Source: an uncultured virus (IMG/VR IMGVR_UViG_3300042898_002828) (lineage: Duplodnaviria > Heunggongvirae > Uroviricota > Caudoviricetes > Crassvirales). Taken from it: a stretch of 20,000 bases of DNA. The translations under genes were made by a program, and so were the position numbers. The stretch lies in IMG/VR virus record IMGVR_UViG_3300042898_002828. One strand, given 5' to 3'. Every line of letters begins with the position of its first letter. Position 1 is the first letter of the stretch. A model generated the notes under the pieces. It searched no databases. It was given only the letters and a program-made list of their open reading frames with translations, and had not been told where the DNA came from. This document shows, one piece after another, positions 2,349 to 18,807 of this stretch.

Positions 2349-2956
2349 TGTACTCACAAAACGCAGAAGAAAACTATATAATTGACTATTTTGGTAATTT
2401 TAAAGGAAGCCTACTTGATATAGGCGCTAACGATGGAAAAACATTTTCAAACTCTTTAAAATTAATAGAATTAGGTTGGAAAGCTACCCTTATTGAGCCT
2501 TCACCAAAAGCATTTAATAAATTATCAGAGCTTCACTTTGGAAATAACAATGTAACATGTATTAATACTGCAATAGGAACTAAAAATGGCACCATGATTT
2601 TACACGAATCAAGCCATCATAATAAAGACCAAAAAGACATAGCACTTCTTAGCTCTTTAAAAGAATCTGAAACTGAAAGATGGAAAAAATCAGGAGTAAA
2701 ATTCAATCAATGCGAAGTTAATGTATCTACATACAAAAAAGTGTTTGAAACTAGTGTATTTGATTTTATAACAATTGATGCAGAAGGTTACGATTTAGAG
2801 ATATTACGTCAAATAGACCTAACAGACACTAAACTATTATGTATTGAGTGGAATACCAACGATCAGGCTAAAGGTCAAATATTAGAATACACAATTAAAT
2901 TTGGAATGAATAAAATAATTTATGTTTCAGGTGAAAATTTATTAATAGGAAGATGA
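2348..2956 (+). CDS. FkbM-family methyltransferase
   Basis: MYSQNAEE start, LDIGANDG, LIEPSP, and DFITIDAEGYDLEIL motifs. Confidence 0.88.
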   Translation: MYSQNAEENYIIDYFGNFKGSLLDIGANDGKTFSNSLKLIELGWKATLIEPSPKAFNKLSELHFGNNNVTCINTAIGTKNGTMILHESSHHNKDQKDIALLSSLKESETERWKKSGVKFNQCEVNVSTYKKVFETSVFDFITIDAEGYDLEILRQIDLTDTKLLCIEWNTNDQAKGQILEYTIKFGMNKIIYVSGENLLIGR

Positions 2957-3702
2957 CACGATTAGCTGCTATTTATAATTGTTTTGCTGATAGTTCAGAA
3001 TTACTACCATACAGTCTTAATTGCCTAATTGGTCATGTAGATGAAATAATAATAGTTTACCAGGATGTATCTAACTACGGAGAGCCAATCCCATTTGAGA
3101 AACTATCAGACAAATTCATAAAAAATATATTTTCAAATTTTACATACGTTAAATATTCCCCAAACTTTAGTTTCTCAGGCACCGTAAACGAAACATTAAA
3201 ACGTAATTTAGGAATACAATCAGCAAAAGAAAGTGGATGTACGCATTATTTCTGTTGCGATTCCGATGAACTATGGGAAAACTTTAGTCTAGCAAAACAA
3301 CAATACTTTGATTCGGGCCACAAAGCATCAGTAGCATCTATGTGGACATTCTTTAAAGACCCAACCTTACGTTTTCAAAACAAAGACAATTATTATGTTC
3401 CATTCATTTGTGAGCTAACACCAGAGTCAAACGTAGGAAATAACCGATGTAAATACATCTGCGACCCTACTAGAAAACCAAACGAGCAAGACGTTATTTT
3501 AATAGAAGAACCTATGTGGCATTATTCTTGGGTACGCAAAGACATCCTACTCAAAGTAAGAAACAGTTCCGCCCAAGTAAATATAGGGAACTCAAATAGA
3601 CTGCACGATTACAGAAACCCCGATTGTAAAGAAGGATATTATGTTAAAGACTTCCAACAAAAACTAATCAAAGTAGAAAACACATTTAACATTAACATAT
3701 AA
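2953..3702 (+). CDS. putative glycosyltransferase (GT2-like)
   Basis: VDEIIIV, ETLKRNLG, YFCCDSDE (DxD motif) and a C-terminal MWHYSWVR motif; ATGA overlap with the FkbM gene. Confidence 0.6.
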   Translation: MTRLAAIYNCFADSSELLPYSLNCLIGHVDEIIIVYQDVSNYGEPIPFEKLSDKFIKNIFSNFTYVKYSPNFSFSGTVNETLKRNLGIQSAKESGCTHYFCCDSDELWENFSLAKQQYFDSGHKASVASMWTFFKDPTLRFQNKDNYYVPFICELTPESNVGNNRCKYICDPTRKPNEQDVILIEEPMWHYSWVRKDILLKVRNSSAQVNIGNSNRLHDYRNPDCKEGYYVKDFQQKLIKVENTFNINI

Positions 3703-3727
3703 AAAAAAGCACCCGGATAAGGTGCTT
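3700..3727 (-). terminator. intrinsic terminator between convergent genes (possibly bidirectional)
   Basis: Stem AAGCACC (3707-3713) / GGTGCTT (3721-3727) with a 7-nt loop; the A-run from 3701 gives a U-tract on the minus strand. Confidence 0.75.
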
Positions 3728-3751: not shown

Positions 3752-4072
3752 TTAAGCTATAGCTATAGAAGTAATAAGTTGTTGAGTAGATCCAACTAAC
3801 GGCAATACAGGAACAATAATTGTGTCTGGATTAGATGCAGCGCTGTTAGCAAGAGCCAAAGCGTCAATTACTGCGTAGTGAGACTGATAAGTAGCATCAG
3901 CGGTAGTAAATGTAATTGTAATTACATCAGAAGCAGCGTGTCCCTCATAAAGGTGAAGCAATACAGTGCTTGTTGAAGGCATTGTAATAAAATAATCTGC
4001 ATTAGCAGAAATTAAAGTCTTTGGCAATGCATTTGCTGCGCCAACTGTAAATTGTAAATATTTTCTGTTCAT
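3752..4072 (-). CDS. hypothetical protein (Ala/Thr-rich, 106 aa; possibly virion-associated)
   Basis: Clean ORF with its own upstream TATTTTTG element and downstream terminator; no recognisable motif. Confidence 0.75.
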   Translation of the reverse strand: MNRKYLQFTVGAANALPKTLISANADYFITMPSTSTVLLHLYEGHAASDVITITFTTADATYQSHYAVIDALALANSAASNPDTIIVPVLPLVGSTQQLITSIAIA

Positions 4073-10395: not shown

Positions 10396-10827
10396 ATGAC
10401 AGACGCAGAACAACTTAAAGAAGATAGGATGATTTTTGAATTAAAATGCCTCCTAGATATTAAAGATTTTAAAATATTTCAAGACGAAGCAGAAAAAATA
10501 TGGATTTTAGATAAGTTGAAAAAACATAATTTTAATGTCACTAAAACTGCTATTGAAATTCGCATCCAGCGGAGCCATCTTTACAATAAAATCATCAAAT
10601 ACAAAATTCCAATAGATAGGAAACTAAAATACAGCTATTCAAATGGTAAATACATGGTAATTTTCAATCCTAATGGGGATAGGTTTAATTTTATTATCAA
10701 AAATGAACCCGAACTAACGGAAACTATAAAAAGTGGCTTACAATTCGTTTATATACGAAAATCAAATTTAGCTTACATGGCCAAAAAAATATTCACCCGG
10801 ATAGAAAATTTAACAAACGTCAATTAA
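10396..10827 (+). CDS. Fis-type (HTH_8) DNA-binding protein resembling the C-terminus of NtrC/NtrX-like sigma54 activators
   Basis: FQDEAEKIWILDKLKKHNFNVTKTAIEIRIQRSHLYNKIIKYKI fits the Fis/NtrC HTH pattern; no AAA+ or receiver domain. Confidence 0.75.
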   Translation: MTDAEQLKEDRMIFELKCLLDIKDFKIFQDEAEKIWILDKLKKHNFNVTKTAIEIRIQRSHLYNKIIKYKIPIDRKLKYSYSNGKYMVIFNPNGDRFNFIIKNEPELTETIKSGLQFVYIRKSNLAYMAKKIFTRIENLTNVN

Positions 10828-11941: not shown

Positions 11942-12012
11942 CTTACACACCAATAACACCGATACTTGGGTTAGATGATTACAATAGCACCCAAAAATTA
12001 GTAAATGCACCT

Positions 12013-12073
12013 ATTTAGAACGTTTCTAAATTACTTAAACCAACAAATAATTAAAACAATATCTCTTAATTTG
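12013..12073 (+). promoter_or_regulatory. box D (perfect ATTTAGAA-CGT-TTCTAAAT, 12013-12031) plus -7-like TTAATTTG ending at 12073
   Basis: Direct reading; 38 nt between the box and the TTTG. Confidence 0.7.
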
Positions 12074-12077
12074 AATA

Positions 12078-12224
12078 ATGAAATTTAAAGCACTTAGGAA
12101 GTTCAGTAGGCAAGAGGTTGTGGGATACCTAAGTAAAATTAACAAAGTAAGAATTTATACCATTGATGGGGTTGATTATACAATAACTGAATTTAAAAAA
12201 CATTTTAATAATTTTGAAATATGA
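12078..12224 (+). CDS. hypothetical protein, 48 aa (MKFKALRKFSRQEVVG...)
   Basis: Read manually; near-leaderless start after the box D promoter. Confidence 0.55.
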   Translation: MKFKALRKFSRQEVVGYLSKINKVRIYTIDGVDYTITEFKKHFNNFEI

Positions 12225-12394
12225 CAAAGAAAGGAAAATATTTTTTTAGAGATATATCGCCAGGTACATACAATAAACACGAAGTTATTCCGGCCACTAG
12301 GGTTTGTTTTTGTTGCGGTAAATACGTGGAACCATTCAATATATTTTGTGATCCTTGTTATGCAAAAAATAACCAACGAAGAACTAATAATTAA
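12221..12394 (+). CDS. small Cys-rich (zinc-finger-like) protein, 57 aa (...VCFCCGKYVEPFNIFCDPCY...)
   Basis: Read manually; CxxC...CxxC pattern; ATGA overlap. Confidence 0.55.
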   Translation: MTKKGKYFFRDISPGTYNKHEVIPATRVCFCCGKYVEPFNIFCDPCYAKNNQRRTNN

Positions 12395-12398
12395 ATAA

Positions 12399-12650
12399 AT
12401 GAACATACAAAACATTTTTAAAAGTAAACCAAAATTTGAAACATGTACCTTGGCAATAGCCGACTACTTTAAAAGAAATGGTAGTTTAAGCCAGTTGGAG
12501 TGTTGCCAGTTATTCCTTAATTGGAATCTTCACAAAGTAGTGGACCGTCTAAAAAAACACCACAATATGAATTTTGAGAAAACAAAAAAGCTTGTTAAAA
12601 CCAGATACGGTAAAACAACTGAAATTGTAACCTATCACTTAATAAGATGA
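12399..12650 (+). CDS. winged helix-turn-helix protein (HTH_39-like)
   Basis: GSLSQLEC...L..VVDRLKK...TRYGK...TYHL pattern. Confidence 0.55.
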   Translation: MNIQNIFKSKPKFETCTLAIADYFKRNGSLSQLECCQLFLNWNLHKVVDRLKKHHNMNFEKTKKLVKTRYGKTTEIVTYHLIR

Positions 12651-12838
12651 TTGAAGATTATCCGTTATTTGCTGACTTTTGGAAGCTAACCAATAAAATT
12701 GGGAGAAAAGAGTTGATGGCAAAACGATGGCAGGTATTGCCACAATGGAAGAAGATTGAAGTTTTTAACAAAGCATTAAACGATAAAAATAAAAAGGGAG
12801 CAGAATTTTACCTAAACATAGGAAGATGGAAGAATTAG
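12647..12838 (+). CDS. hypothetical protein resembling a replication-initiator C-terminal fragment (F.DFWK...A..RW..L)
   Basis: ATGA overlap; weak resemblance to the C-terminus of 13149..13748. Confidence 0.55.
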   Translation: MIEDYPLFADFWKLTNKIGRKELMAKRWQVLPQWKKIEVFNKALNDKNKKGAEFYLNIGRWKN

Positions 12839-13005
12839 AAAACATAAAATCAGAAATAGAAAGCATTAAAGATGAAATTGAAAATCTGTCCGACCAAATT
12901 AGAAGAGAACGTGACGGTTCTGTTGATAATCAACGAGATTTAATGAAAAAATCTATGGAGTTAAATTTAGCACGTAGAAAACTTGAATTTAAGCTAATGA
13001 GGTAA
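12826..13005 (+). CDS. coiled-coil hypothetical protein, 59 aa (MEELENIKSEIESIKDEIENLSDQI...)
   Basis: Read manually; heptad pattern. Confidence 0.6.
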   Translation: MEELENIKSEIESIKDEIENLSDQIRRERDGSVDNQRDLMKKSMELNLARRKLEFKLMR

Positions 13006-13028
13006 TTTGTTTTTGTAATAAGTTAAAC

Positions 13029-13036
13029 TATATTTG
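13029..13036 (+). promoter_or_regulatory. Bacteroidota -7 element TATATTTG for the replication operon
   Basis: Canonical TAnnTTTG; no palindromic box upstream. Confidence 0.65.
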
Positions 13037-13050
13037 TACCGCTCATCACG

Positions 13051-13152
13051 ATGAAAATCTTTAAAAATAAATCCCCATTCCTTACATTGCACTTTGCATA
13101 TTCTATGCACGTGATGAGCCTTTGTATTGGATGGGGTTATTTTTATAAATGA
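13051..13152 (+). CDS. putative 33-aa leader peptide (MKIFKNKSPFLTLHFAYSMHVMSLCIGWGYFYK) coupled to the initiator gene
   Basis: Its TGA (13150-13152) overlaps the initiator ATG (13149-13151), and it spans a structured leader. Confidence 0.45.
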   Translation: MKIFKNKSPFLTLHFAYSMHVMSLCIGWGYFYK

Positions 13153-13748
13153 GAGATTCCTGTATTTTTTACCGTAGTTTTTATGAATCAATTAACGAAC
13201 TACCAGACATAAACAAATTAGAAATTTACAACGCTATTTTTAGCTATTCTTTGAACTTTATTGAGCTTGAATTAACAGGTTTAAGTAAATCTATTTTTAC
13301 ATTAATAAAACCACAACTTGATGCTAATATCAAGCGTTTTAATAACGGTAATATACCAAAAGATAAGCAAACAAAAAGCAAAACAGAAGCAAAACAGAAG
13401 CAAAAAGAAAGCAAACGTGAAGCTAATAACAATGTAAATAACAATAACAATGTAAATGATAATAAGAATAAAGAAGAAAAGATAAATTTTGATATTTTTT
13501 ATAATTTATATGATAAAAAAGTAGATGGCAAGGATGCTAAATTAAAATGGGATAGATTAGATTTACAAACTCAACAACTAATATTATCGGTAGTTCCTAA
13601 ATACATAAAATCCACCCCTGATAAGCAATTTAGAAAATCGCCTTTGGTTTACTTAAATAAAAAGGCATGGGAGGATGAAATTATTATAGAAAAAGAGTTT
13701 AACAAACCAGTACAAACATACAAAGAACCAATATCAAAATTATTATGA
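13149..13748 (+). CDS. phage replication initiator (DUF6291-like N-terminus, low-complexity linker, FDIFYNLY...W C-terminal domain)
   Basis: DSCIFYRSFYESI...IKPQLDAN N-terminus, internal iterons, and position upstream of DnaB. Confidence 0.75.
   Translation: MRDSCIFYRSFYESINELPDINKLEIYNAIFSYSLNFIELELTGLSKSIFTLIKPQLDANIKRFNNGNIPKDKQTKSKTEAKQKQKESKREANNNVNNNNNVNDNKNKEEKINFDIFYNLYDKKVDGKDAKLKWDRLDLQTQQLILSVVPKYIKSTPDKQFRKSPLVYLNKKAWEDEIIIEKEFNKPVQTYKEPISKLL
13365..13480 (+). repeat. 11-bp iterons (AAGCAAAnnnn-type, six units, 13365-13430) plus an AT-rich tract: putative origin of replication
   Basis: aagcaaacaaa / aagcaaaacag / aagcaaaacag / aagcaaaaaga / aagcaaacgtg / aagctaataac, followed by AATAACAATGTAAAT repeats. 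Confidence 0.65.
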
Positions 13749-13969
13749 GAAAAATAAGATTAGAATACTCAAGAGAGCAAGGATGTTTTCACTTTGAAAA
13801 TGTTAATAAGGACAATAAAAATACATTTAGTTATTTTACAATTAAAAATGAGGTTGATAGTGATATAGCTTCTGAATTTGTAAAAATGTATGATAGTAAA
13901 TATCCTAAAAGAAATATATCAATCCAGGCAATGAAAGATGAATTTAATAACTTTATCAATGGAAGGTAA
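13745..13969 (+). CDS. hypothetical protein, distant paralog of 11490..11750
   Basis: Shares RLE....Q..FH..N and FTI with 11490..11750. Confidence 0.7.
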   Translation: MRKIRLEYSREQGCFHFENVNKDNKNTFSYFTIKNEVDSDIASEFVKMYDSKYPKRNISIQAMKDEFNNFINGR

Positions 13970-15377
13970 ATTACCACCACAGGCAATAGATTTAGAAGAA
14001 ATAGTAATAGGGGCTGCAATGCTTGAAAAAACGGCATTTGGTAAAGTATCAACTATTTTAGATAAAAAAGATTTTTATAAGGAGCAACATAGTATAGTTT
14101 GGGATATTATGAGTGAACTATATAATGAAAATTTACCAATAGATATTATGTCTGTTATTGAAAAGTTAAGGTCAAAAGGTAAATTAGATTTAATAGGTGG
14201 TGCGCATTTTATAAGCCAACTAACAATAAGGGTTGCTTCTGCTGCAAATATTGAATATCATTCTACAATTATAAAACAGTTATCACTACAAAGAAATATT
14301 ATTGAACTTTCAACGGATTATTTAAATAAAGCATGGGAAAATGGAATAGACCCTTTTGAATTTAGTAAAGAATTTGCATGGAAACTTGAAAATATTACAT
14401 CTTCACTTACTCCCGATATGAGAGATATAGGTAAAGTTGCTAAATTAACTTACAGTATGATGCGTGAAGCAAGTTTAAATGAAAGTGATATAATTGGGTA
14501 TCCAAGTTCAATAAGTGCCTTAAATGATAAATTATTAGGCTATTCTGCACCCGATTTTACAATAGTTGCAGCAGGAACCGGAGAAGGTAAATCTACGTTT
14601 ATGTTAAATGAAGTTAAGGCACTTGCAAAACAAGGCATTCCATGTGCTGTATTTAGTTTAGAAATGAACGATTATCAACTATTATGGAAAATGTTTAGTT
14701 CTGATTTAGATATAGATGTTAAAAGTATAAGAAAGGGTAAAATGGATGAAGGTAGATGGGATAGTTTAAGTGATAATGTTAAAGAATATGCAAAGATGCC
14801 AGTTTACTTTTATGATTCAGGGGGATTAACGATAGAAAAGTTTTGTGGTATTGTTAAAGAAGCTGTAAGGAAAAACGGTGTAAAAATGGTTTTTATAGAT
14901 TATATACAGTTGCTTATGGTTCAAAATGCTAAAGACTTTGGTAATAGAGAGGGTCAGGTTAATTTTATATCTAAAAGGATTAAACGATTAGCAAGGGAAT
15001 TAAGCATACCTATAATGGCTTTAAGTCAATTATCAAGATTAGAAAAAGGAACTAAAAGAAAATATAAACTTTCGGATTTAAGAGAATCTGGAGCATTAGA
15101 ACAAGATTCAGATAACGTAATATTTTTATATAATCCATCTTATCATGGAGTTGAAGAAATGGAATTTTATGATAAAAACGAAAACGGAAATTATGAGAAA
15201 CAAACTATTGCATTTGATCATGAAGATTGTTTAATTTTGATAGAAAAATGCAGATTAGGAGAAACAGGAATAGTAAGATGTAAATTTAAAGGTAAATTTT
15301 CACGACATGAAGATTTACCAAATAGCCAACGAATACAAAAGACAGAAGATTTTAGTTTTAACGATAGACCTTTTTAA
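13959..15377 (+). CDS. dnaB: replicative DNA helicase DnaB
   Basis: LPPQAIDLEE N-terminus, Walker A AGTGEGKST, FSLEM, VFIDYIQL, ALSQLSR and SDLRESGALEQDSD; start set at MEGKLPP (13959). Confidence 0.95.
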   Translation: MEGKLPPQAIDLEEIVIGAAMLEKTAFGKVSTILDKKDFYKEQHSIVWDIMSELYNENLPIDIMSVIEKLRSKGKLDLIGGAHFISQLTIRVASAANIEYHSTIIKQLSLQRNIIELSTDYLNKAWENGIDPFEFSKEFAWKLENITSSLTPDMRDIGKVAKLTYSMMREASLNESDIIGYPSSISALNDKLLGYSAPDFTIVAAGTGEGKSTFMLNEVKALAKQGIPCAVFSLEMNDYQLLWKMFSSDLDIDVKSIRKGKMDEGRWDSLSDNVKEYAKMPVYFYDSGGLTIEKFCGIVKEAVRKNGVKMVFIDYIQLLMVQNAKDFGNREGQVNFISKRIKRLARELSIPIMALSQLSRLEKGTKRKYKLSDLRESGALEQDSDNVIFLYNPSYHGVEEMEFYDKNENGNYEKQTIAFDHEDCLILIEKCRLGETGIVRCKFKGKFSRHEDLPNSQRIQKTEDFSFNDRPF

Positions 15378-16136: not shown

Positions 16137-16395
16137 GGTTTACTTAAACCATTTCGGATATGGTGAAGATGATTTTATAAAATGTGAAAGACCCGAATGC
16201 AATAAAAGGGCAGTAGATATTATGCACCTTATACCACGTTCTAAGTTTGGTAAAAAAAGAAAAGATGAACAAGACCACATTACTAACCTTTTTGCAGGGT
16301 GTAGGTTATGTCATACAGCATTTGACGATGGGAAAAAATGGACATTAGAAGAAATGCAAAAAATACATTTATTTAATTTATCAAGATTAATATGA
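16120..16395 (+). CDS. HNH-like endonuclease with Zn-binding cysteines
   Basis: CERPEC...AVDIMHL...NLFAGCRLCH. Confidence 0.65.
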   Translation: MQNHVKVYLNHFGYGEDDFIKCERPECNKRAVDIMHLIPRSKFGKKRKDEQDHITNLFAGCRLCHTAFDDGKKWTLEEMQKIHLFNLSRLI

Positions 16396-17165
16396 AAAAA
16401 TACATATCATTTAGCGGTGGAGTTGAAAGTTCAACAATGGCAATACTTTATGGCAAAGGTGCTAAATTGATATGGGTAGATACCGGAGCAGAACATAAAG
16501 AACTTTATGACAGATTAGATATGTTTGAAAAATACATATTAGAACTACATAAAGGAGATTGTGAATTAATCCGTTTAAAAGGTTCTTATTCTACTAAAGG
16601 TGTAAAAGTAGATAGTTTGATTGATGCGATAAGAATAGGACAATTTATGCCATCAGGCCAAAAAAGATTTTGCACATCAGCATTTAAAATTAAACCTATT
16701 GATAATTATTTAAAGTCACTTGGCGAAGTAGAACTTATGATAGGTTTTAATTTGGATGAAGAAGGTAGGACAGGAAACCTTGAAAAAATATCAAGTATTA
16801 ATTACACATATCCTTTAATTAATGATGGCTACACAAGAAAAGACTGTGAAGCTATTTTAGAATTTCACGGAATGCACCCATCTTTTCCTGTTTATATGAA
16901 TAGAGGAGGCTGTAAGATGTGTTTTTATAAGTCACAAAAAGAATACAAAGCAATGTATTATTTAGACCGTGATACTTTTAATGAAATTAAAGAATTAGAA
17001 AATAATATTCAAGATAAAAGAACTAAGCGTTTTTCAATTATGGAATCAGGCAAATCAATGAATCAACTAGAACAAGAGTGCAAAGAAGAAATACCATTTG
17101 ATTTTACCGAAATTTATAAAGATAGGGAGAGCAATCGTTCTTGTGGAGCATTTTGTAGAAGATAG
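16392..17165 (+). CDS. PAPS-reductase-family (PP-loop, Cys-rich) protein
   Basis: SFSGGVES, VDTGAEH, RFCTSAFKIKPI, YPL, GGCKMCFY and C-terminal SCGAFC. Confidence 0.8.
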   Translation: MKKYISFSGGVESSTMAILYGKGAKLIWVDTGAEHKELYDRLDMFEKYILELHKGDCELIRLKGSYSTKGVKVDSLIDAIRIGQFMPSGQKRFCTSAFKIKPIDNYLKSLGEVELMIGFNLDEEGRTGNLEKISSINYTYPLINDGYTRKDCEAILEFHGMHPSFPVYMNRGGCKMCFYKSQKEYKAMYYLDRDTFNEIKELENNIQDKRTKRFSIMESGKSMNQLEQECKEEIPFDFTEIYKDRESNRSCGAFCRR

Positions 17166-17382: not shown

Positions 17383-18807
17383 ATGAAAATAAATGTATTG
17401 AGCCTGTTTGATGGGATGTCTTGCGGACAACAAGCACTTGAAAGAACTGGTATTAAAGTAGATAATTATTTTGCATCAGAGATTGATAAGTATGCAATCC
17501 AAGTTACTATGGCAAATTACCCCAATACAATTCAATTAGGGAGCGTTGTAGGAGTGGATGGGTATAGTTTACCTAAAATTGATTTATTAATAGGTGGAAG
17601 TCCTTGCCAATCGTTTTCATTTGCAGGTAAAAGAAAAGGAATGTCTACCAAATGCGAAACTGAGATATTAACCTTAGAGCATTACCTTGAATTAAAAGCA
17701 GAAGGCTACGAATTTGAAGGGCAGTCTTATTTGTTTTGGGAATTTATGCGGTTACTATATGAATGCAAACCTAAATACTTTTTACTTGAGAATGTTGAGA
17801 TGGGCGAAAAGTGGGAAAAAGTATTAAGTAAGGCAATTGGAGTTAATGGTATCCATATAAACTCAGCTTTATTCTCTGCTCAGAATCGTAAGCGTATTTA
17901 TTGGACAAATATAGGATTAGAACCGGCAGGATTATTTGGTTATCCAATGTCTATTATAAGAAAACCAAAAGACAAAAAAATATTATTAAAAGATATTTTG
18001 GAAAGTGAGGTTGATGAAAAGTATTTTTTGAGTGAGAAAGCAATTGATCGATTTGCAAGGTCAGAAGGTGGTGAAAAGTGTCTTGATAATGATAATAAAT
18101 CTATGTGTTTAATTAGTGGATATTATAAACAAGGCAGAGATAATCAATTAATAGTCCACAACACAATGCCACGTTCATCAACATCGGGCAAAGGTGGTAC
18201 AGGCCCATTAAGTAGAGCTGATGGAAAAACTTATTGCTTGGATACCGGTAATACAAATGCGGTGGAGGTAGTTAGTACAATTAAACATAAATACAATGGG
18301 GATGTTTTAGAAAATACAAGTGGAAAAGTTGGTACAATTACTCAACATATGAGCAGAAGCGGTATGACTAATGGATTTAAAGTTGTTGTTCCTAATACTA
18401 ATGAGGTGGAGATAGTGGCTCAAAGAGGCAGAGGCGAAAAAGGCAATATTGAGCAACAATTAGAAGTTAGGAAAGATGGAAAAACAAATTGCTTAACAAG
18501 TGTGCAAAAAGATAATTTAATTAGACAACTTAACCCATCTCTTGAAAGTGGTGGCAAACAACCTTACCAACAAAATAGAGTGTATGATATAGATGGAATT
18601 AGTCCTGCATTACAAGCTCAATTACCATATGGAGCTAATATTATAAACACTTCACGCATCCGCAGACTAACGCCAACAGAATGCGAAAGATTGCAAACAG
18701 TACCTGATAACTACACTAATCACGTTAGCGATTCACAACGATATAAAATGCTTGGAAATGGGTGGACAGTTGATGTTATTGCTCACATATTATCTTATTT
18801 AGAATGA
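17383..18807 (+). CDS. DNA (cytosine-5)-methyltransferase with a long modular target-recognition region
   Basis: VLSLFDG (motif I), GGSPCQ (IV), LLENV (VI), QNRKR (VIII), RRLTPTECERLQ (IX) and LGNGW (X). Confidence 0.93.
   Translation: MKINVLSLFDGMSCGQQALERTGIKVDNYFASEIDKYAIQVTMANYPNTIQLGSVVGVDGYSLPKIDLLIGGSPCQSFSFAGKRKGMSTKCETEILTLEHYLELKAEGYEFEGQSYLFWEFMRLLYECKPKYFLLENVEMGEKWEKVLSKAIGVNGIHINSALFSAQNRKRIYWTNIGLEPAGLFGYPMSIIRKPKDKKILLKDILESEVDEKYFLSEKAIDRFARSEGGEKCLDNDNKSMCLISGYYKQGRDNQLIVHNTMPRSSTSGKGGTGPLSRADGKTYCLDTGNTNAVEVVSTIKHKYNGDVLENTSGKVGTITQHMSRSGMTNGFKVVVPNTNEVEIVAQRGRGEKGNIEQQLEVRKDGKTNCLTSVQKDNLIRQLNPSLESGGKQPYQQNRVYDIDGISPALQAQLPYGANIINTSRIRRLTPTECERLQTVPDNYTNHVSDSQRYKMLGNGWTVDVIAHILSYLE

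What the first reader, a model, noticed from the sequence alone, without database searches (positions are those of the whole stretch)
13029..13152. Leader peptide plus pseudoknot-like RNA switch in front of the replication initiator
Seen: right after TATATTTG (13029-13036), GCTCATCACG (13041-13050) is perfectly complementary to CGTGATGAGC (13110-13119). A second long imperfect stem pairs AAAAATAAATCCCCATTCCTTACA (13063-13085) with TGTATTGGATGGGGTTATTTTT (13123-13144) and covers the initiator's start region. The two pairings cross (a-b-a'-b'), giving a pseudoknot or alternative folds; an inner hairpin TGCATA-TTC-TATGCA is also present. A 33-codon ORF (13051-13152) runs through the structure and ends in an ATGA overlap with the initiator. 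Established: IncI/IncB plasmids control Rep translation through a leader peptide (repY), a pseudoknot and an antisense RNA. Inference: an analogous copy-number or timing control in a phage.
Basis: partly seen in the sequence, partly recalled or inferred. Interest (0 to 1): 0.72.

Follow-up and report, generated by a model that had tools for sequence, protein, structure and literature searches.

The report
Portable pseudoknotted leader RNA in phages
A short conserved RNA leader with two interlocking stems and a small upstream reading frame sits between a promoter and a phage replication gene; its relatives also precede nuclease genes, so it looks like a movable expression control and not a replication-specific switch.

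Summary
Both crossing pairings, the inner hairpin and the 33-codon upstream ORF sit where stated, apart from one end coordinate that is off by one.

Relatives show this is not chance. I found 10 lineages of the element in lake-water phage contigs. Helix a (10-11 bp) has a different sequence in every lineage yet always pairs perfectly with its own partner. Helix b keeps pairing through compensatory changes. G.U pairs occur and A.C never, so the selected molecule is RNA of the + strand.

A Bacteroidota-type promoter (TTTG-N19-TATATTTG) places the predicted start on the first base of helix a. The 3' arm of helix b ends 2-3 nt before the downstream start codon.

The upstream ORF stays open to that start codon, or fuses with it, in 7 of 10 lineages (1.6 expected). 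Its peptide is not conserved.

The element is not tied to replication. The same promoter-plus-leader cassette precedes initiators, HNH and endonuclease VII genes and small ORFs, with recombination breakpoints at its edges. I found no antisense promoter and no Rfam match.

Best reading: a portable cis-acting leader that gates translation, and possibly transcription, of dose-sensitive DNA-metabolism genes. The mechanism is inferred.

The parts
13003..13152 (+). Whole portable cassette: promoter, leader RNA and junction with the downstream start codon
   Evidence: Homology to G003 begins at 13003. Homology to G002 stops at 13152 and resumes at 13398. CM R1 and R2 match 13029-13151 at E 5.5e-30 and 7.3e-25, the only copy in the window.
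13006..13009 (+). -33 TTTG motif, 19 nt upstream of the -7 box
   Evidence: Identical in window, L003, L007 and L028. Not present in L112.
13029..13036 (+). -7 box TATATTTG, matching the Bacteroidota consensus TAnnTTTG
   Evidence: The consensus is cited in PMC7641319. A box at this place occurs in all aligned members, degenerate in L294 and L313.
13041..13042 (+). Predicted transcription start (inferred)
   Evidence: F. johnsoniae start sites lie 4-5 nt after the -7 element (PMC6847099). In all 11 aligned members, 'GC' follows the box after 4 nt and opens helix a.
13041..13050 (+). Helix a, 5' arm
13051..13152 (+). Upstream ORF: 33 codons plus stop, ATGA overlap with the initiator start
13051..13061 (+). 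Linker L1 (AUGAAAAUCUU): conserved, unpaired, holds the upstream AUG
   Evidence: Invariant except one base in A3. An AUG lies 0-6 nt after the helix a arm in all members.
13062..13086 (+). Helix b, 5' arm (A-run, CCCC core, UACA)
13095..13109 (+). Inner hairpin (6 bp, loop UUC)
   Evidence: A hairpin is present at this place in every member, with other sequences.
13110..13119 (+). Helix a, 3' arm
13120..13122 (+). Linker L3 (CUU) between the two 3' arms
   Evidence: Invariant in A3 and A5.
13123..13145 (+). Helix b, 3' arm, including the U-rich tract 13137-13144. It ends 3 nt before the initiator AUG.
   Evidence: The block TATTTTTAT plus 1-3 nt plus ATG is present in 10 of 12 members.
13149..13748 (+). 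Downstream gene: initiator or replisome-organiser-like protein (199 aa)
   Evidence: Pfam DUF6291, residues 4-69, E 5.4e-15. PHROG 270 'replication initiation protein', residues 75-182, E 4.1e-12. DnaB helicase follows at 13938-15377.

Best explanation
The region 13003-13152 is a self-contained promoter-plus-leader cassette of phages that, judging by their promoter type, infect Bacteroidota.

How I think it works:
1. Transcription starts at about 13041.
2. The first 10 nt pair with 13110-13119 (helix a).
3. An A-run/CCCC segment (13062-13086) pairs with a GGGG/U-run segment (13123-13145) that ends 3 nt before the start codon of the downstream gene (helix b).
4. The two helices interleave, giving either a pseudoknot or two competing folds.
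5. These hosts do not use Shine-Dalgarno pairing, and structure around a start codon inhibits initiation. Helix b should therefore hold the downstream gene's initiation region closed, and helix a should hold the 5' end next to the upstream AUG closed.
6. A ribosome that starts at the upstream AUG (13051) reads through both 3' arms, melts them, and terminates on or next to the downstream start (ATGA). The downstream gene is then translated mainly by coupling or re-initiation.

Net effect: a throttle on dose-sensitive DNA-metabolism genes (initiators, nucleases) that travels with those genes.

Shown here: the motif matches, both helices and their strand, the position of the two start codons relative to the helices, the bias for an open upstream frame, and the portability.

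Inferred: the transcription start, translation of the upstream ORF, coupling, and the direction of the effect.
For: Helix a:
- 10 distinct arm sequences occur in 10 lineages, each fully complementary to its own partner. Own partner pairs 10 of 10; foreign partners average 6.2.
- 8 of 10 pairs change on both sides.

Helix b:
- Compensatory cores include CCCCA/UGGGG, CCCCG/CGGGG, CCCUCA/UGAGGG, CCCGC/GCGGG, CCCGCUC/GAGCGGG and CCCAUCA/UGAUGGG.
- Duplex energy is -20.0 kcal/mol for own arms and -13.4 for foreign arms.

Strand: G.U or U.G cells occur in every helix and there are no A.C cells.

Promoter: a full TTTG-N19-TAnnTTTG promoter lies directly upstream. The predicted start falls on the first base of helix a, using the 4-5 nt rule from PMC6847099.

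Position of the start codons:
- The first AUG lies 0-6 nt after the helix a arm in all members.
- A or G occupies its -3 position in 10 of 10 lineages, read.
- The helix b 3' arm and its U-tract abut the downstream AUG in front of at least 7 different genes.

Upstream frame:
- It is open to, or fused with, the downstream start in 7 of 10 lineages. Shuffles predict 1.6 (P about 2e-4 if the lineages were independent).
- The other two frames are open in 2 of 10 and 0 of 10 lineages.
- The conserved block GCCUUUGUAUU is read in different frames in different lineages, so the act of translation matters and the peptide does not.

Host translation: PMC6847099 (abstract and passages) reports that Bacteroidetes lack SD use, that structure around the start tunes initiation, that A at -3 helps, and that stray AUGs near starts are avoided.
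Against: - The upstream frame is cut short inside the element in 3 of 10 lineages: L298 type (12 or 25 codons), L297 (16 codons) and L294 (19 codons).
- In 3 lineages it is fused in frame to the gene, which is not coupling in the strict sense.
- In the 6 close variants tested, one antisense frame is also open. Open frames are therefore partly a property of this sequence.
- A second, unrelated leader type in front of related initiators has a similar layout (promoter, long-range pairing, U-tract, AUG) but no 5' upstream ORF.
- The U-tract and A-tract never vary (15 of 23 helix b pairs are invariant). That fits a terminator U-tract as well as it fits pairing.
- The upstream AUG would have a leader of only about 10 nt. 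In F. johnsoniae, 87% of predicted transcripts have leaders longer than 10 nt.
- I have no RNA, ribosome or reporter data.
- I could not test whether the two helices form at the same time.
Confidence: 0.45

Rival explanations
1. Transcription attenuator, or target of antitermination. Helix b (a GC core followed directly by UUAUUUUUAU) would act as an intrinsic terminator placed just after a strong promoter. Most transcripts would then end as a roughly 105-nt leader RNA. Read-through into the gene would occur when helix a forms first (its 3' arm is made before that of helix b), when a ribosome on the upstream ORF covers helix b (pyrBI-like logic, recalled), or when a phage factor modifies the polymerase (lambda pR'-tR'/Q, nut or put logic, recalled).
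For: - A GC-rich stem is followed directly by a U-rich tract that is invariant in 10 of 12 members.
- The A-U part of helix b never swaps orientation.
- The unrelated 'type 2' leader before related initiators ends in a clearer hairpin-plus-U5AU4 just before the AUG and has no upstream ORF.
- The upstream ORF spans the whole terminator-like helix.
Against: - The terminator scan finds nothing here.
- The only canonical terminator in the window is a compact 8-bp hairpin at 3707-3727.
- Helix b encloses 36-48 nt with a hairpin and the a' arm, which is unusual for a terminator.
- The U-tract is itself paired with the A-run.
- The fixed 2-3 nt spacing to a start codon in front of many different genes points to translation.
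- No antiterminator-like protein was recognised among the neighbours.
Confidence: 0.25
2. Generic expression cassette in which the structure acts mainly on the RNA's lifetime. A fully paired 5' end (helix a starts at +1) would protect against 5'-end-dependent decay, or the roughly 21-bp helix b would be an RNase III-type processing site. The upstream ORF would be incidental.
For: - Helix a begins at the predicted +1 in 11 of 11 members.
- The cassette is portable and precedes unrelated genes.
- Helix b is long enough for a double-strand-specific RNase. This rests on established knowledge of T7 and lambda processing sites, recalled.
Against: - It does not explain the bias for an open upstream frame.
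- It does not explain the fixed abutment of helix b on the start codon.
- It does not explain the conserved unpaired AUG-containing linker.
Confidence: 0.12
3. One reading: an IncI/IncB-like replication control in which a leader peptide, an activating pseudoknot and an antisense RNA set the initiator level and so the copy number or timing.
For: - The leader ORF ends in ATGA on the initiator start, and the pairings cross.
- A diverged copy again precedes a DUF6291 initiator plus DnaB in G009 (L313).
- The plasmid mechanism is as summarised in PMC8053102 (passages).
Against: - No -7 box lies on the minus strand between 13040 and 13700.
- The cassette also precedes HNH, endonuclease VII and other genes.
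- Distant DUF6291 initiators lack it.
- The crossing helices are long, whereas the plasmid pseudoknot is a short loop-to-tail contact (that detail is recalled from Asano & Mizobuchi 1998, cited, which I did not read).
Confidence: 0.03
4. A DNA-level element: inverted repeats serving as a recombination hot spot, an origin, or a protein-binding site, with no role for the RNA.
For: - Mosaic breakpoints lie at both edges of the cassette.
- PeSL cassettes of T4-type phages mediate shuffling by homology (PMC2839356).
Against: - G.U pairs without any A.C pairs show selection on one strand only.
- The element starts exactly at a predicted transcription start.
- Candidate iterons lie elsewhere, at 13357-13469.
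- A recombination role may well coexist with an RNA role.
Confidence: 0.05

Closest known systems
IncIalpha/IncB (I-complex) plasmid repY-repZ / repB-repA control
   Same: A leader ORF is translationally coupled to an initiator gene, and RNA pairing crosses another helix near the initiator's start. The plasmid mechanism is as summarised in PMC8053102.
   Different: No antisense promoter was found. The helices are 10 and about 21 bp, not a short loop contact. The element sits in a phage in an SD-less host, is not restricted to initiators, and shows no sequence relation.
PeSL 'promoter-early stem-loop' mobile regulatory cassettes of T4-type phages (PMC2839356, PMC4122927)
   Same: A roughly 100-150 bp composite of a consensus host promoter plus a G/C-run stem, running up to the start codon of the next gene. 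It precedes variable genes, and recombination breakpoints lie at its edges.
   Different: Here the structure lies downstream of the start site, in the RNA. It has two interleaved helices under RNA-level selection and carries an upstream ORF. It is single-copy in 3 of 3 near-complete genomes, against about 50 PeSLs per T4-type genome.
Leader-ORF attenuators such as E. coli pyrBI (recalled, not read here)
   Same: A leader ORF runs through a terminator-like hairpin plus U-tract and ends just before the structural gene.
   Different: No nucleotide-sensing logic is evident. The extra helix a ties the 5' end to the inside of the hairpin. Termination was not tested.
Start-site-occluding hairpins of free-standing homing endonuclease genes in T4, and the 5' pseudoknot of the T4 gene 32 leader (both recalled)
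   Same: Phage DNA-metabolism or nuclease genes are kept low by structure in their own leaders.
   Different: The architecture differs and there is no sequence relation. The host lacks SD-dependent initiation.
'Type 2' leader found here before related initiators (L013, L016, L019, L021, L023, L025)
   Same: The layout matches: TATATTTG promoter, a 5'-proximal segment complementary to the apical loop of a long helix (GUAGGAU / AUCCUAC), then a U-tract and the AUG. It is portable in front of three N-terminal domain types.
   Different: The sequence is unrelated and there is no 5' upstream ORF. The contact is loop to loop, not between long crossing helices. It has no Rfam match.

Membership tests
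IncI/IncB-type antisense-controlled initiator leader | Leader ORF translationally coupled to the initiator gene | tested here: met
   There is an ATGA overlap in the window. The frame reaches or fuses with the downstream start in 7 of 10 lineages. Translation itself was not tested.
IncI/IncB-type antisense-controlled initiator leader | Antisense RNA gene on the opposite strand of the leader | tested here: not met
   No TAnnTTTG box lies on the minus strand between 13040 and 13700. No RNA run was available, so this rests on motifs only.
IncI/IncB-type antisense-controlled initiator leader | Short activating pseudoknot between a hairpin loop and the sequence next to the initiator's ribosome-binding region | tested here: inconclusive
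   Crossing helices exist with covariation. They are 10 and about 21 bp long helices, and their effect is unknown.
IncI/IncB-type antisense-controlled initiator leader | Dedicated to the replication initiator of its replicon | tested here: not met
   The same element precedes NUMOD4/HNH_3, HNH_3, endonuclease VII and small ORFs.
Intrinsic terminator / attenuator | GC-rich stem directly followed by a U-tract | tested here: met
   CCCCAUUC/GGAUGGGG is followed by UUAUUUUUAU. The tract is conserved in 10 of 12 members.
Intrinsic terminator / attenuator | Compact hairpin (short loop) able to fold at the U-tract | tested here: not met
   The scan finds no terminator-like site in 12000-14200. The helix encloses 36-48 nt.
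Intrinsic terminator / attenuator | Transcripts actually end there | not testable with these tools
   No RNA holder is listed.
PeSL-like mobile regulatory cassette | Consensus host promoter plus stem-loop filling the gap up to the next start codon | tested here: met
PeSL-like mobile regulatory cassette | Many copies per genome, flanking variable genes | tested here: not met
   One copy in the window and one each in G002, G003 and G006. Two copies in the fragments G007 and G009.
PeSL-like mobile regulatory cassette | Recombination joints at the cassette | tested here: met
   Breakpoints lie at 13003 and 13152. All four combinations of two element types with two downstream N-terminal domains exist.
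Any Rfam 15 family | Match to a curated covariance model | tested here: not met
   0 matches at gathering score in the window. The best E-value in 12980-13200 is 1.4, to eukaryotic miRNA or snoRNA models.
H-type RNA pseudoknot | Two helices in the order a-b-a'-b', each supported | tested here: met
H-type RNA pseudoknot | Both helices present at the same time in one molecule | not testable with these tools
   No pseudoknot-capable folding or probing was available. My own geometry estimate says a side-by-side arrangement is possible, and that coaxial stacking of the full helices is not (inference).

The most novel reading that the evidence does not exclude
The cassette is a new class of Shine-Dalgarno-independent translational gate. 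Helix a starts at +1 and ends at -1 of the upstream AUG, so the mRNA can be entered only in the brief interval before the a' arm is transcribed. Alternatively, helix a docks on the ribosome platform in place of an SD duplex. Each transcript would then yield a fixed small burst of an initiator or nuclease and afterwards lock into a stable pseudoknot. Because promoter, gate and start codon form one recombining unit, phages could pass this dose control between genes.
Probability: 0.15. Interest if true: 0.8.

Novelty: new variant of a known kind. Interest (0 to 1): 0.6.

Why it matters
Almost nothing is known about post-transcriptional control in phages of Bacteroidota, a phylum whose ribosomes ignore Shine-Dalgarno sequences. 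This element is a compact RNA of about 105 nt with unusually clean covariation in two interleaved helices, a conserved upstream start codon and a fixed junction to the regulated gene. It is absent from Rfam.

It gives a directly testable handle on two questions. The first is how start-site choice and translational coupling work without SD pairing. The second is how phages keep initiators and homing-type nucleases at low dose.

Its behaviour as a movable promoter-leader unit also extends the 'mobile regulatory cassette' idea from T4-type coliphages to an unrelated phage group. If it turns out to be only a terminator or stabiliser, it is still a new RNA family worth curating.

Tried and rejected
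Searches that found nothing:
- Rfam: no family at gathering score in the window. Only chance-level hits in 12980-13200. None for the type 2 leader.
- tRNA or tmRNA: none.
- Isolate phages: no DNA match for 12800-13800. By protein the nearest are Riemerella phages at 32-46% identity, and their DUF6291 gene has an A-rich, different leader.
- Own genome: not held.
- Earlier scan notes: none.

Pattern scans of limited value:
- One search had a miscounted spacer and found nothing.
- The single metagenome scan used too loose a pattern.
- The genome-contig scan found one unrelated site, L160.
- The scan for '-7 box plus 12-14 nt plus ATGAAAAT' gave 119 loci, mostly chance. 30 of 119 have ORFs of 60 or more codons, against 18% for control ATGs. 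The CM found no new members among them. I therefore draw no conclusion from it about short leaders being usual.

RNA evidence:
- No RNA holder is listed.
- Laid contigs of 4 lake-water DNA runs show only one change inside the element, 13103 C>T in the hairpin loop.

Ideas rejected:
- Leader peptide function: the sequences and hydrophobicity differ between lineages, and a conserved nucleotide block is read in different frames.
- Pairing of the helix a arm with the initiator's AUGAG, seen in the MFE: it is not conserved in L007.
- Programmed frameshifting at the U-run: no slippery heptamer in frame, and the structure lies upstream, not downstream.
- Weak CM hits L014, L013, L015, L167, L240 and L306: not accepted as members.
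- Neighbouring proteins gave no recognisable antiterminator or RNA-binding protein.

Not consulted: supplements of the papers.

Full report
**1. What is in the sequence.**

- TATATTTG lies at 13029-13036.
- A perfect 10-bp inverted repeat joins 13041-13050 and 13110-13119.
- A long imperfect stem joins 13062-13086 and 13123-13145.
- The hairpin lies at 13095-13109.
- The ATG ORF at 13051-13152 ends in ATGA on the start of the 199-aa ORF 13149-13748.
- The only slip is that the 24-letter 5' arm ends at 13086, not 13085.

The downstream protein has a DUF6291 N-terminal domain (E 5.4e-15) and a C-terminal part matching PHROG 270 'replication initiation protein' (E 4.1e-12). A DnaB helicase follows. 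Calling it an initiator is reasonable, by annotation only.

**2. Folding alone is weak evidence.**

The nested minimum-energy fold of 13029-13160 contains helix b and the hairpin but not helix a: -30.3 kcal/mol, z -2.79, and 2 of 200 shuffles fold as well. With helix a forced, the nested energy is -17 to -21 kcal/mol, against -27 to -29 without it. Perfect 10-12 nt inverted repeats also occur by chance in this AT-rich region.

**3. Relatives decide it.**

Protein-guided and pattern scans of IMG/VR found close copies (L001, L004, L002) and variants (L003, L007, L028). The one metagenome scan gave L112. A last, looser IMG/VR pattern gave 9 new loci, 7 of which match the covariance model at E of 7e-7 or lower: L302, L303, L298, L300, L305, L297 and L294. 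Searching those records found two diverged second copies, L313 and L314. That makes 10 lineages.

*Helix a.*
- Four variants aligned by MAFFT: 7 of 10 pairs change on both sides, and every cell pairs.
- Eleven members aligned to the model: 8 of 10 pairs change on both sides and 100% of cells pair. Slid controls give 24-40%. That alignment leans towards the structure.
- An alignment-free control: each 5' arm pairs 10 of 10 with its own 3' arm, against a mean of 6.2 with other members' arms.

*Helix b.*
- It is more conserved in sequence; 15 of 23 pairs never vary.
- Its GC core still changes in a compensatory way.
- Own arms bind at -20.0 kcal/mol and foreign arms at -13.4.

*Inner hairpin.* A hairpin is present at the inner position in all members, with different sequences.

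*Strand.* G.U pairs occur in all helices and A.C never. The selected molecule is therefore an RNA, or at least a single strand, of the + strand.

**4. Promoter and ends.**

The motif TTTG-N19-TATATTTG matches the Bacteroidota -33/-7 promoter. The -7 box TAnnTTTG is cited in PMC7641319. In F. johnsoniae the start site lies 4-5 nt after the -7 element (PMC6847099). That places +1 at 13041-13042, the first base of helix a. In all 11 aligned members the box is followed by 4 nt and then by the 'GC' that opens helix a.

At the other end, the block TATTTTTAT is followed after 1-3 nt by the ATG of the next gene in 10 of 12 members. The element is therefore a complete 5' leader. The host phylum is inferred from three things: the promoter type, the nearest isolate relatives being Riemerella phages, and the source being lake-water metagenomes.

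**5. The upstream ORF.**

An AUG lies 0-6 nt after the helix a arm in all members.

| Outcome of the frame | Junctions | Count (of 14) |
|---|---|---|
| Ends on or next to the downstream start | window, L003, L007, L028, L313, L314 | 6 |
| Fused in frame to the downstream gene | L112, L302, L303 | 3 |
| Stops early | L298 and L300 (12 codons), L305 (25), L297 (16), L294 (19) | 5 |

For L028 the downstream TTG start is my own reading.

By lineage, 7 of 10 frames are open where shuffles predict 1.6. The other two frames are open in 2 of 10 and 0 of 10. The lineages are related, so the nominal P of 2e-4 overstates the case.

The peptide is not conserved. The invariant block GCCTTTGTATT is read as S-L-C-I in the window and as A-F-V-L in L007 and L112.

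Against a simple reading, one antisense frame is also open in the 6 close variants, and all truncated upstream ORFs still run past the 5' arm of helix b.

**6. Not a replication-specific device.**

Downstream genes fall into these groups:
- DUF6291-type or other initiators: window, L003, L007, L028, L313.
- NUMOD4 plus HNH_3: L302.
- HNH_3: L305.
- Weak HNH_3/AP2: L303, L314.
- Endonuclease VII: L297.
- 62-aa ORFs ahead of DUF5906 or Prim-Pol genes: L298, L300, L294.
- An unassigned Cys-rich ORF lying between two transketolase-subunit genes: L112.

Mosaic joints sit at the cassette's edges. G003 resembles the window only from 13003 onward. G002 resembles it up to 13152 and again from 13398. 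Both element types occur with both initiator N-terminal domains.

The cassette is single-copy in the window and in the three records that are at least 90% complete. More distant DUF6291 genes lack it.

**7. A parallel case.**

Initiators that share only the C-terminal domain carry another conserved leader, seen in L013, L016, L017, L019, L021, L023, L024 and L025. Six of these and a partial copy, L018, were aligned.
- It starts with a TATATTTG promoter.
- A first hairpin has the loop GUAGGAU. Its stem covaries from AGGU/ACCU to GGAU/AUCC.
- A long helix carries the complementary loop AUCCUAC at its apex.
- A U5AU4 tract and the AUG follow.
- It has no 5' upstream ORF and no Rfam match.

The shared layout (promoter, 5' segment pairing into the apex of a long helix, U-tract, start codon) suggests a common logic in which the upstream ORF is not essential. 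This raises the weight of the attenuator rival.

**8. Mechanism.**

I favour translational gating with ribosome-dependent opening through the upstream ORF (0.45), for four reasons.
- The two start codons sit exactly at the feet of the two helices.
- The spacing to the regulated start codon is fixed across unrelated genes.
- The upstream frame is kept open more often than chance predicts.
- Initiation in this phylum is structure-sensitive and SD-independent (PMC6847099).

Attenuation or antitermination is the main rival (0.25). RNA stabilisation or processing (0.12), a purely DNA-level role (0.05) and the IncI/IncB-type antisense model (0.03) follow. The remainder is unassigned.

Whether a and b coexist is open. 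By my own estimate, an 11-nt L1 and a 3-nt L3 allow the helices to lie side by side but not to stack coaxially at full length. During synthesis, a' appears before b', so helix a can form first. Both points are inference.

**9. Novelty.**

Rfam 15 has no such family. A full-text search for phage, pseudoknot, leader peptide, replication initiation and translational coupling returned 14 papers holding at least 4 of the 5 terms. None of the 10 listed describes such an element, judged from the listing only.

Papers I saw: PMC6847099, PMC7641319, PMC8053102 and PMC2839356 as passages, and PMC4122927 as abstract and outline. All other systems named here (pyrBI, T4 gene 32, T4 homing-endonuclease hairpins, lambda Q/N, HK022 put) are recalled.

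Noticed in passing
window 13357-13469: Tandem repeats lie inside the initiator gene's low-complexity linker: an 11-bp unit repeated about 5.4 times (13357-13415) and an 18-bp unit repeated 2.5 times (13425-13469). They could be iterons of an origin lying within the initiator gene, as in lambda-type phages (recalled). Homology to G002 resumes inside this array, at 13398.
   Followed up: partly
L013:2467-2568, L016:2517-2619, L019:472-573, L021:2509-2610, L023:2518-2619, L025:2545-2646: A second conserved leader family ('type 2') precedes three different initiator N-terminal domains. It has two hairpins whose 7-nt loops are complementary (GUAGGAU / AUCCUAC), a long helix, and U5AU4 directly before the ATG. 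It has no Rfam match.
   Followed up: partly
window 13149-13398 versus L003:2752-3100 and L028: The initiator's N-terminal domain is swapped exactly at the start codon while the C-terminal domain is kept. All four combinations of two leader alleles with two N-terminal domains exist.
   Followed up: partly
L112:1-1437: The leader plus an unassigned Cys-rich 169-aa ORF lies between a transketolase N-terminal-type gene and a transketolase pyrimidine-binding-type gene. It looks like an insertion into a split transketolase operon.
   Followed up: partly
window 13043 and 13148 (run X24): Loose contig ends show two further forms. One has another leader sequence behind the same promoter. The other has a different upstream sequence joined directly to the same initiator start. 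More alleles of this junction therefore exist in lake water than I could fetch.
   Followed up: no
window 3707-3727: This is the only canonical hairpin-plus-T-run terminator in the 20 kb. It reads as a terminator on both strands and lies between convergent genes 2953-3702 (+) and 3752-4072 (-).
   Followed up: no
window 4088-4072 and 4826-4812 (minus strand): The -7 boxes lie only 8 and 4 nt before ATGs of minus-strand ORFs. This would give leaderless or nearly leaderless mRNAs in the same phage.
   Followed up: no
L176, L181, L234, L245, L264, L267, L271, L277 (around position 401-460 or 321-380): A recurring, nearly identical sequence follows a TATATTTG box in at least 8 unrelated IMG/VR contigs. 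Other such recurring groups include L174/L178/L247/L255, L238/L243/L266/L279 and L224/L230/L250/L289. They may be further conserved promoter-proximal elements.
   Followed up: no
window 10396-10827, 16392-17165, 17383-18807: Neighbouring genes include a Fis-type HTH_8 protein (E 3.6e-5), a PAPS-reductase-like protein (PHROG 424) and a C-5 cytosine DNA methylase (E 2.5e-43).
   Followed up: no
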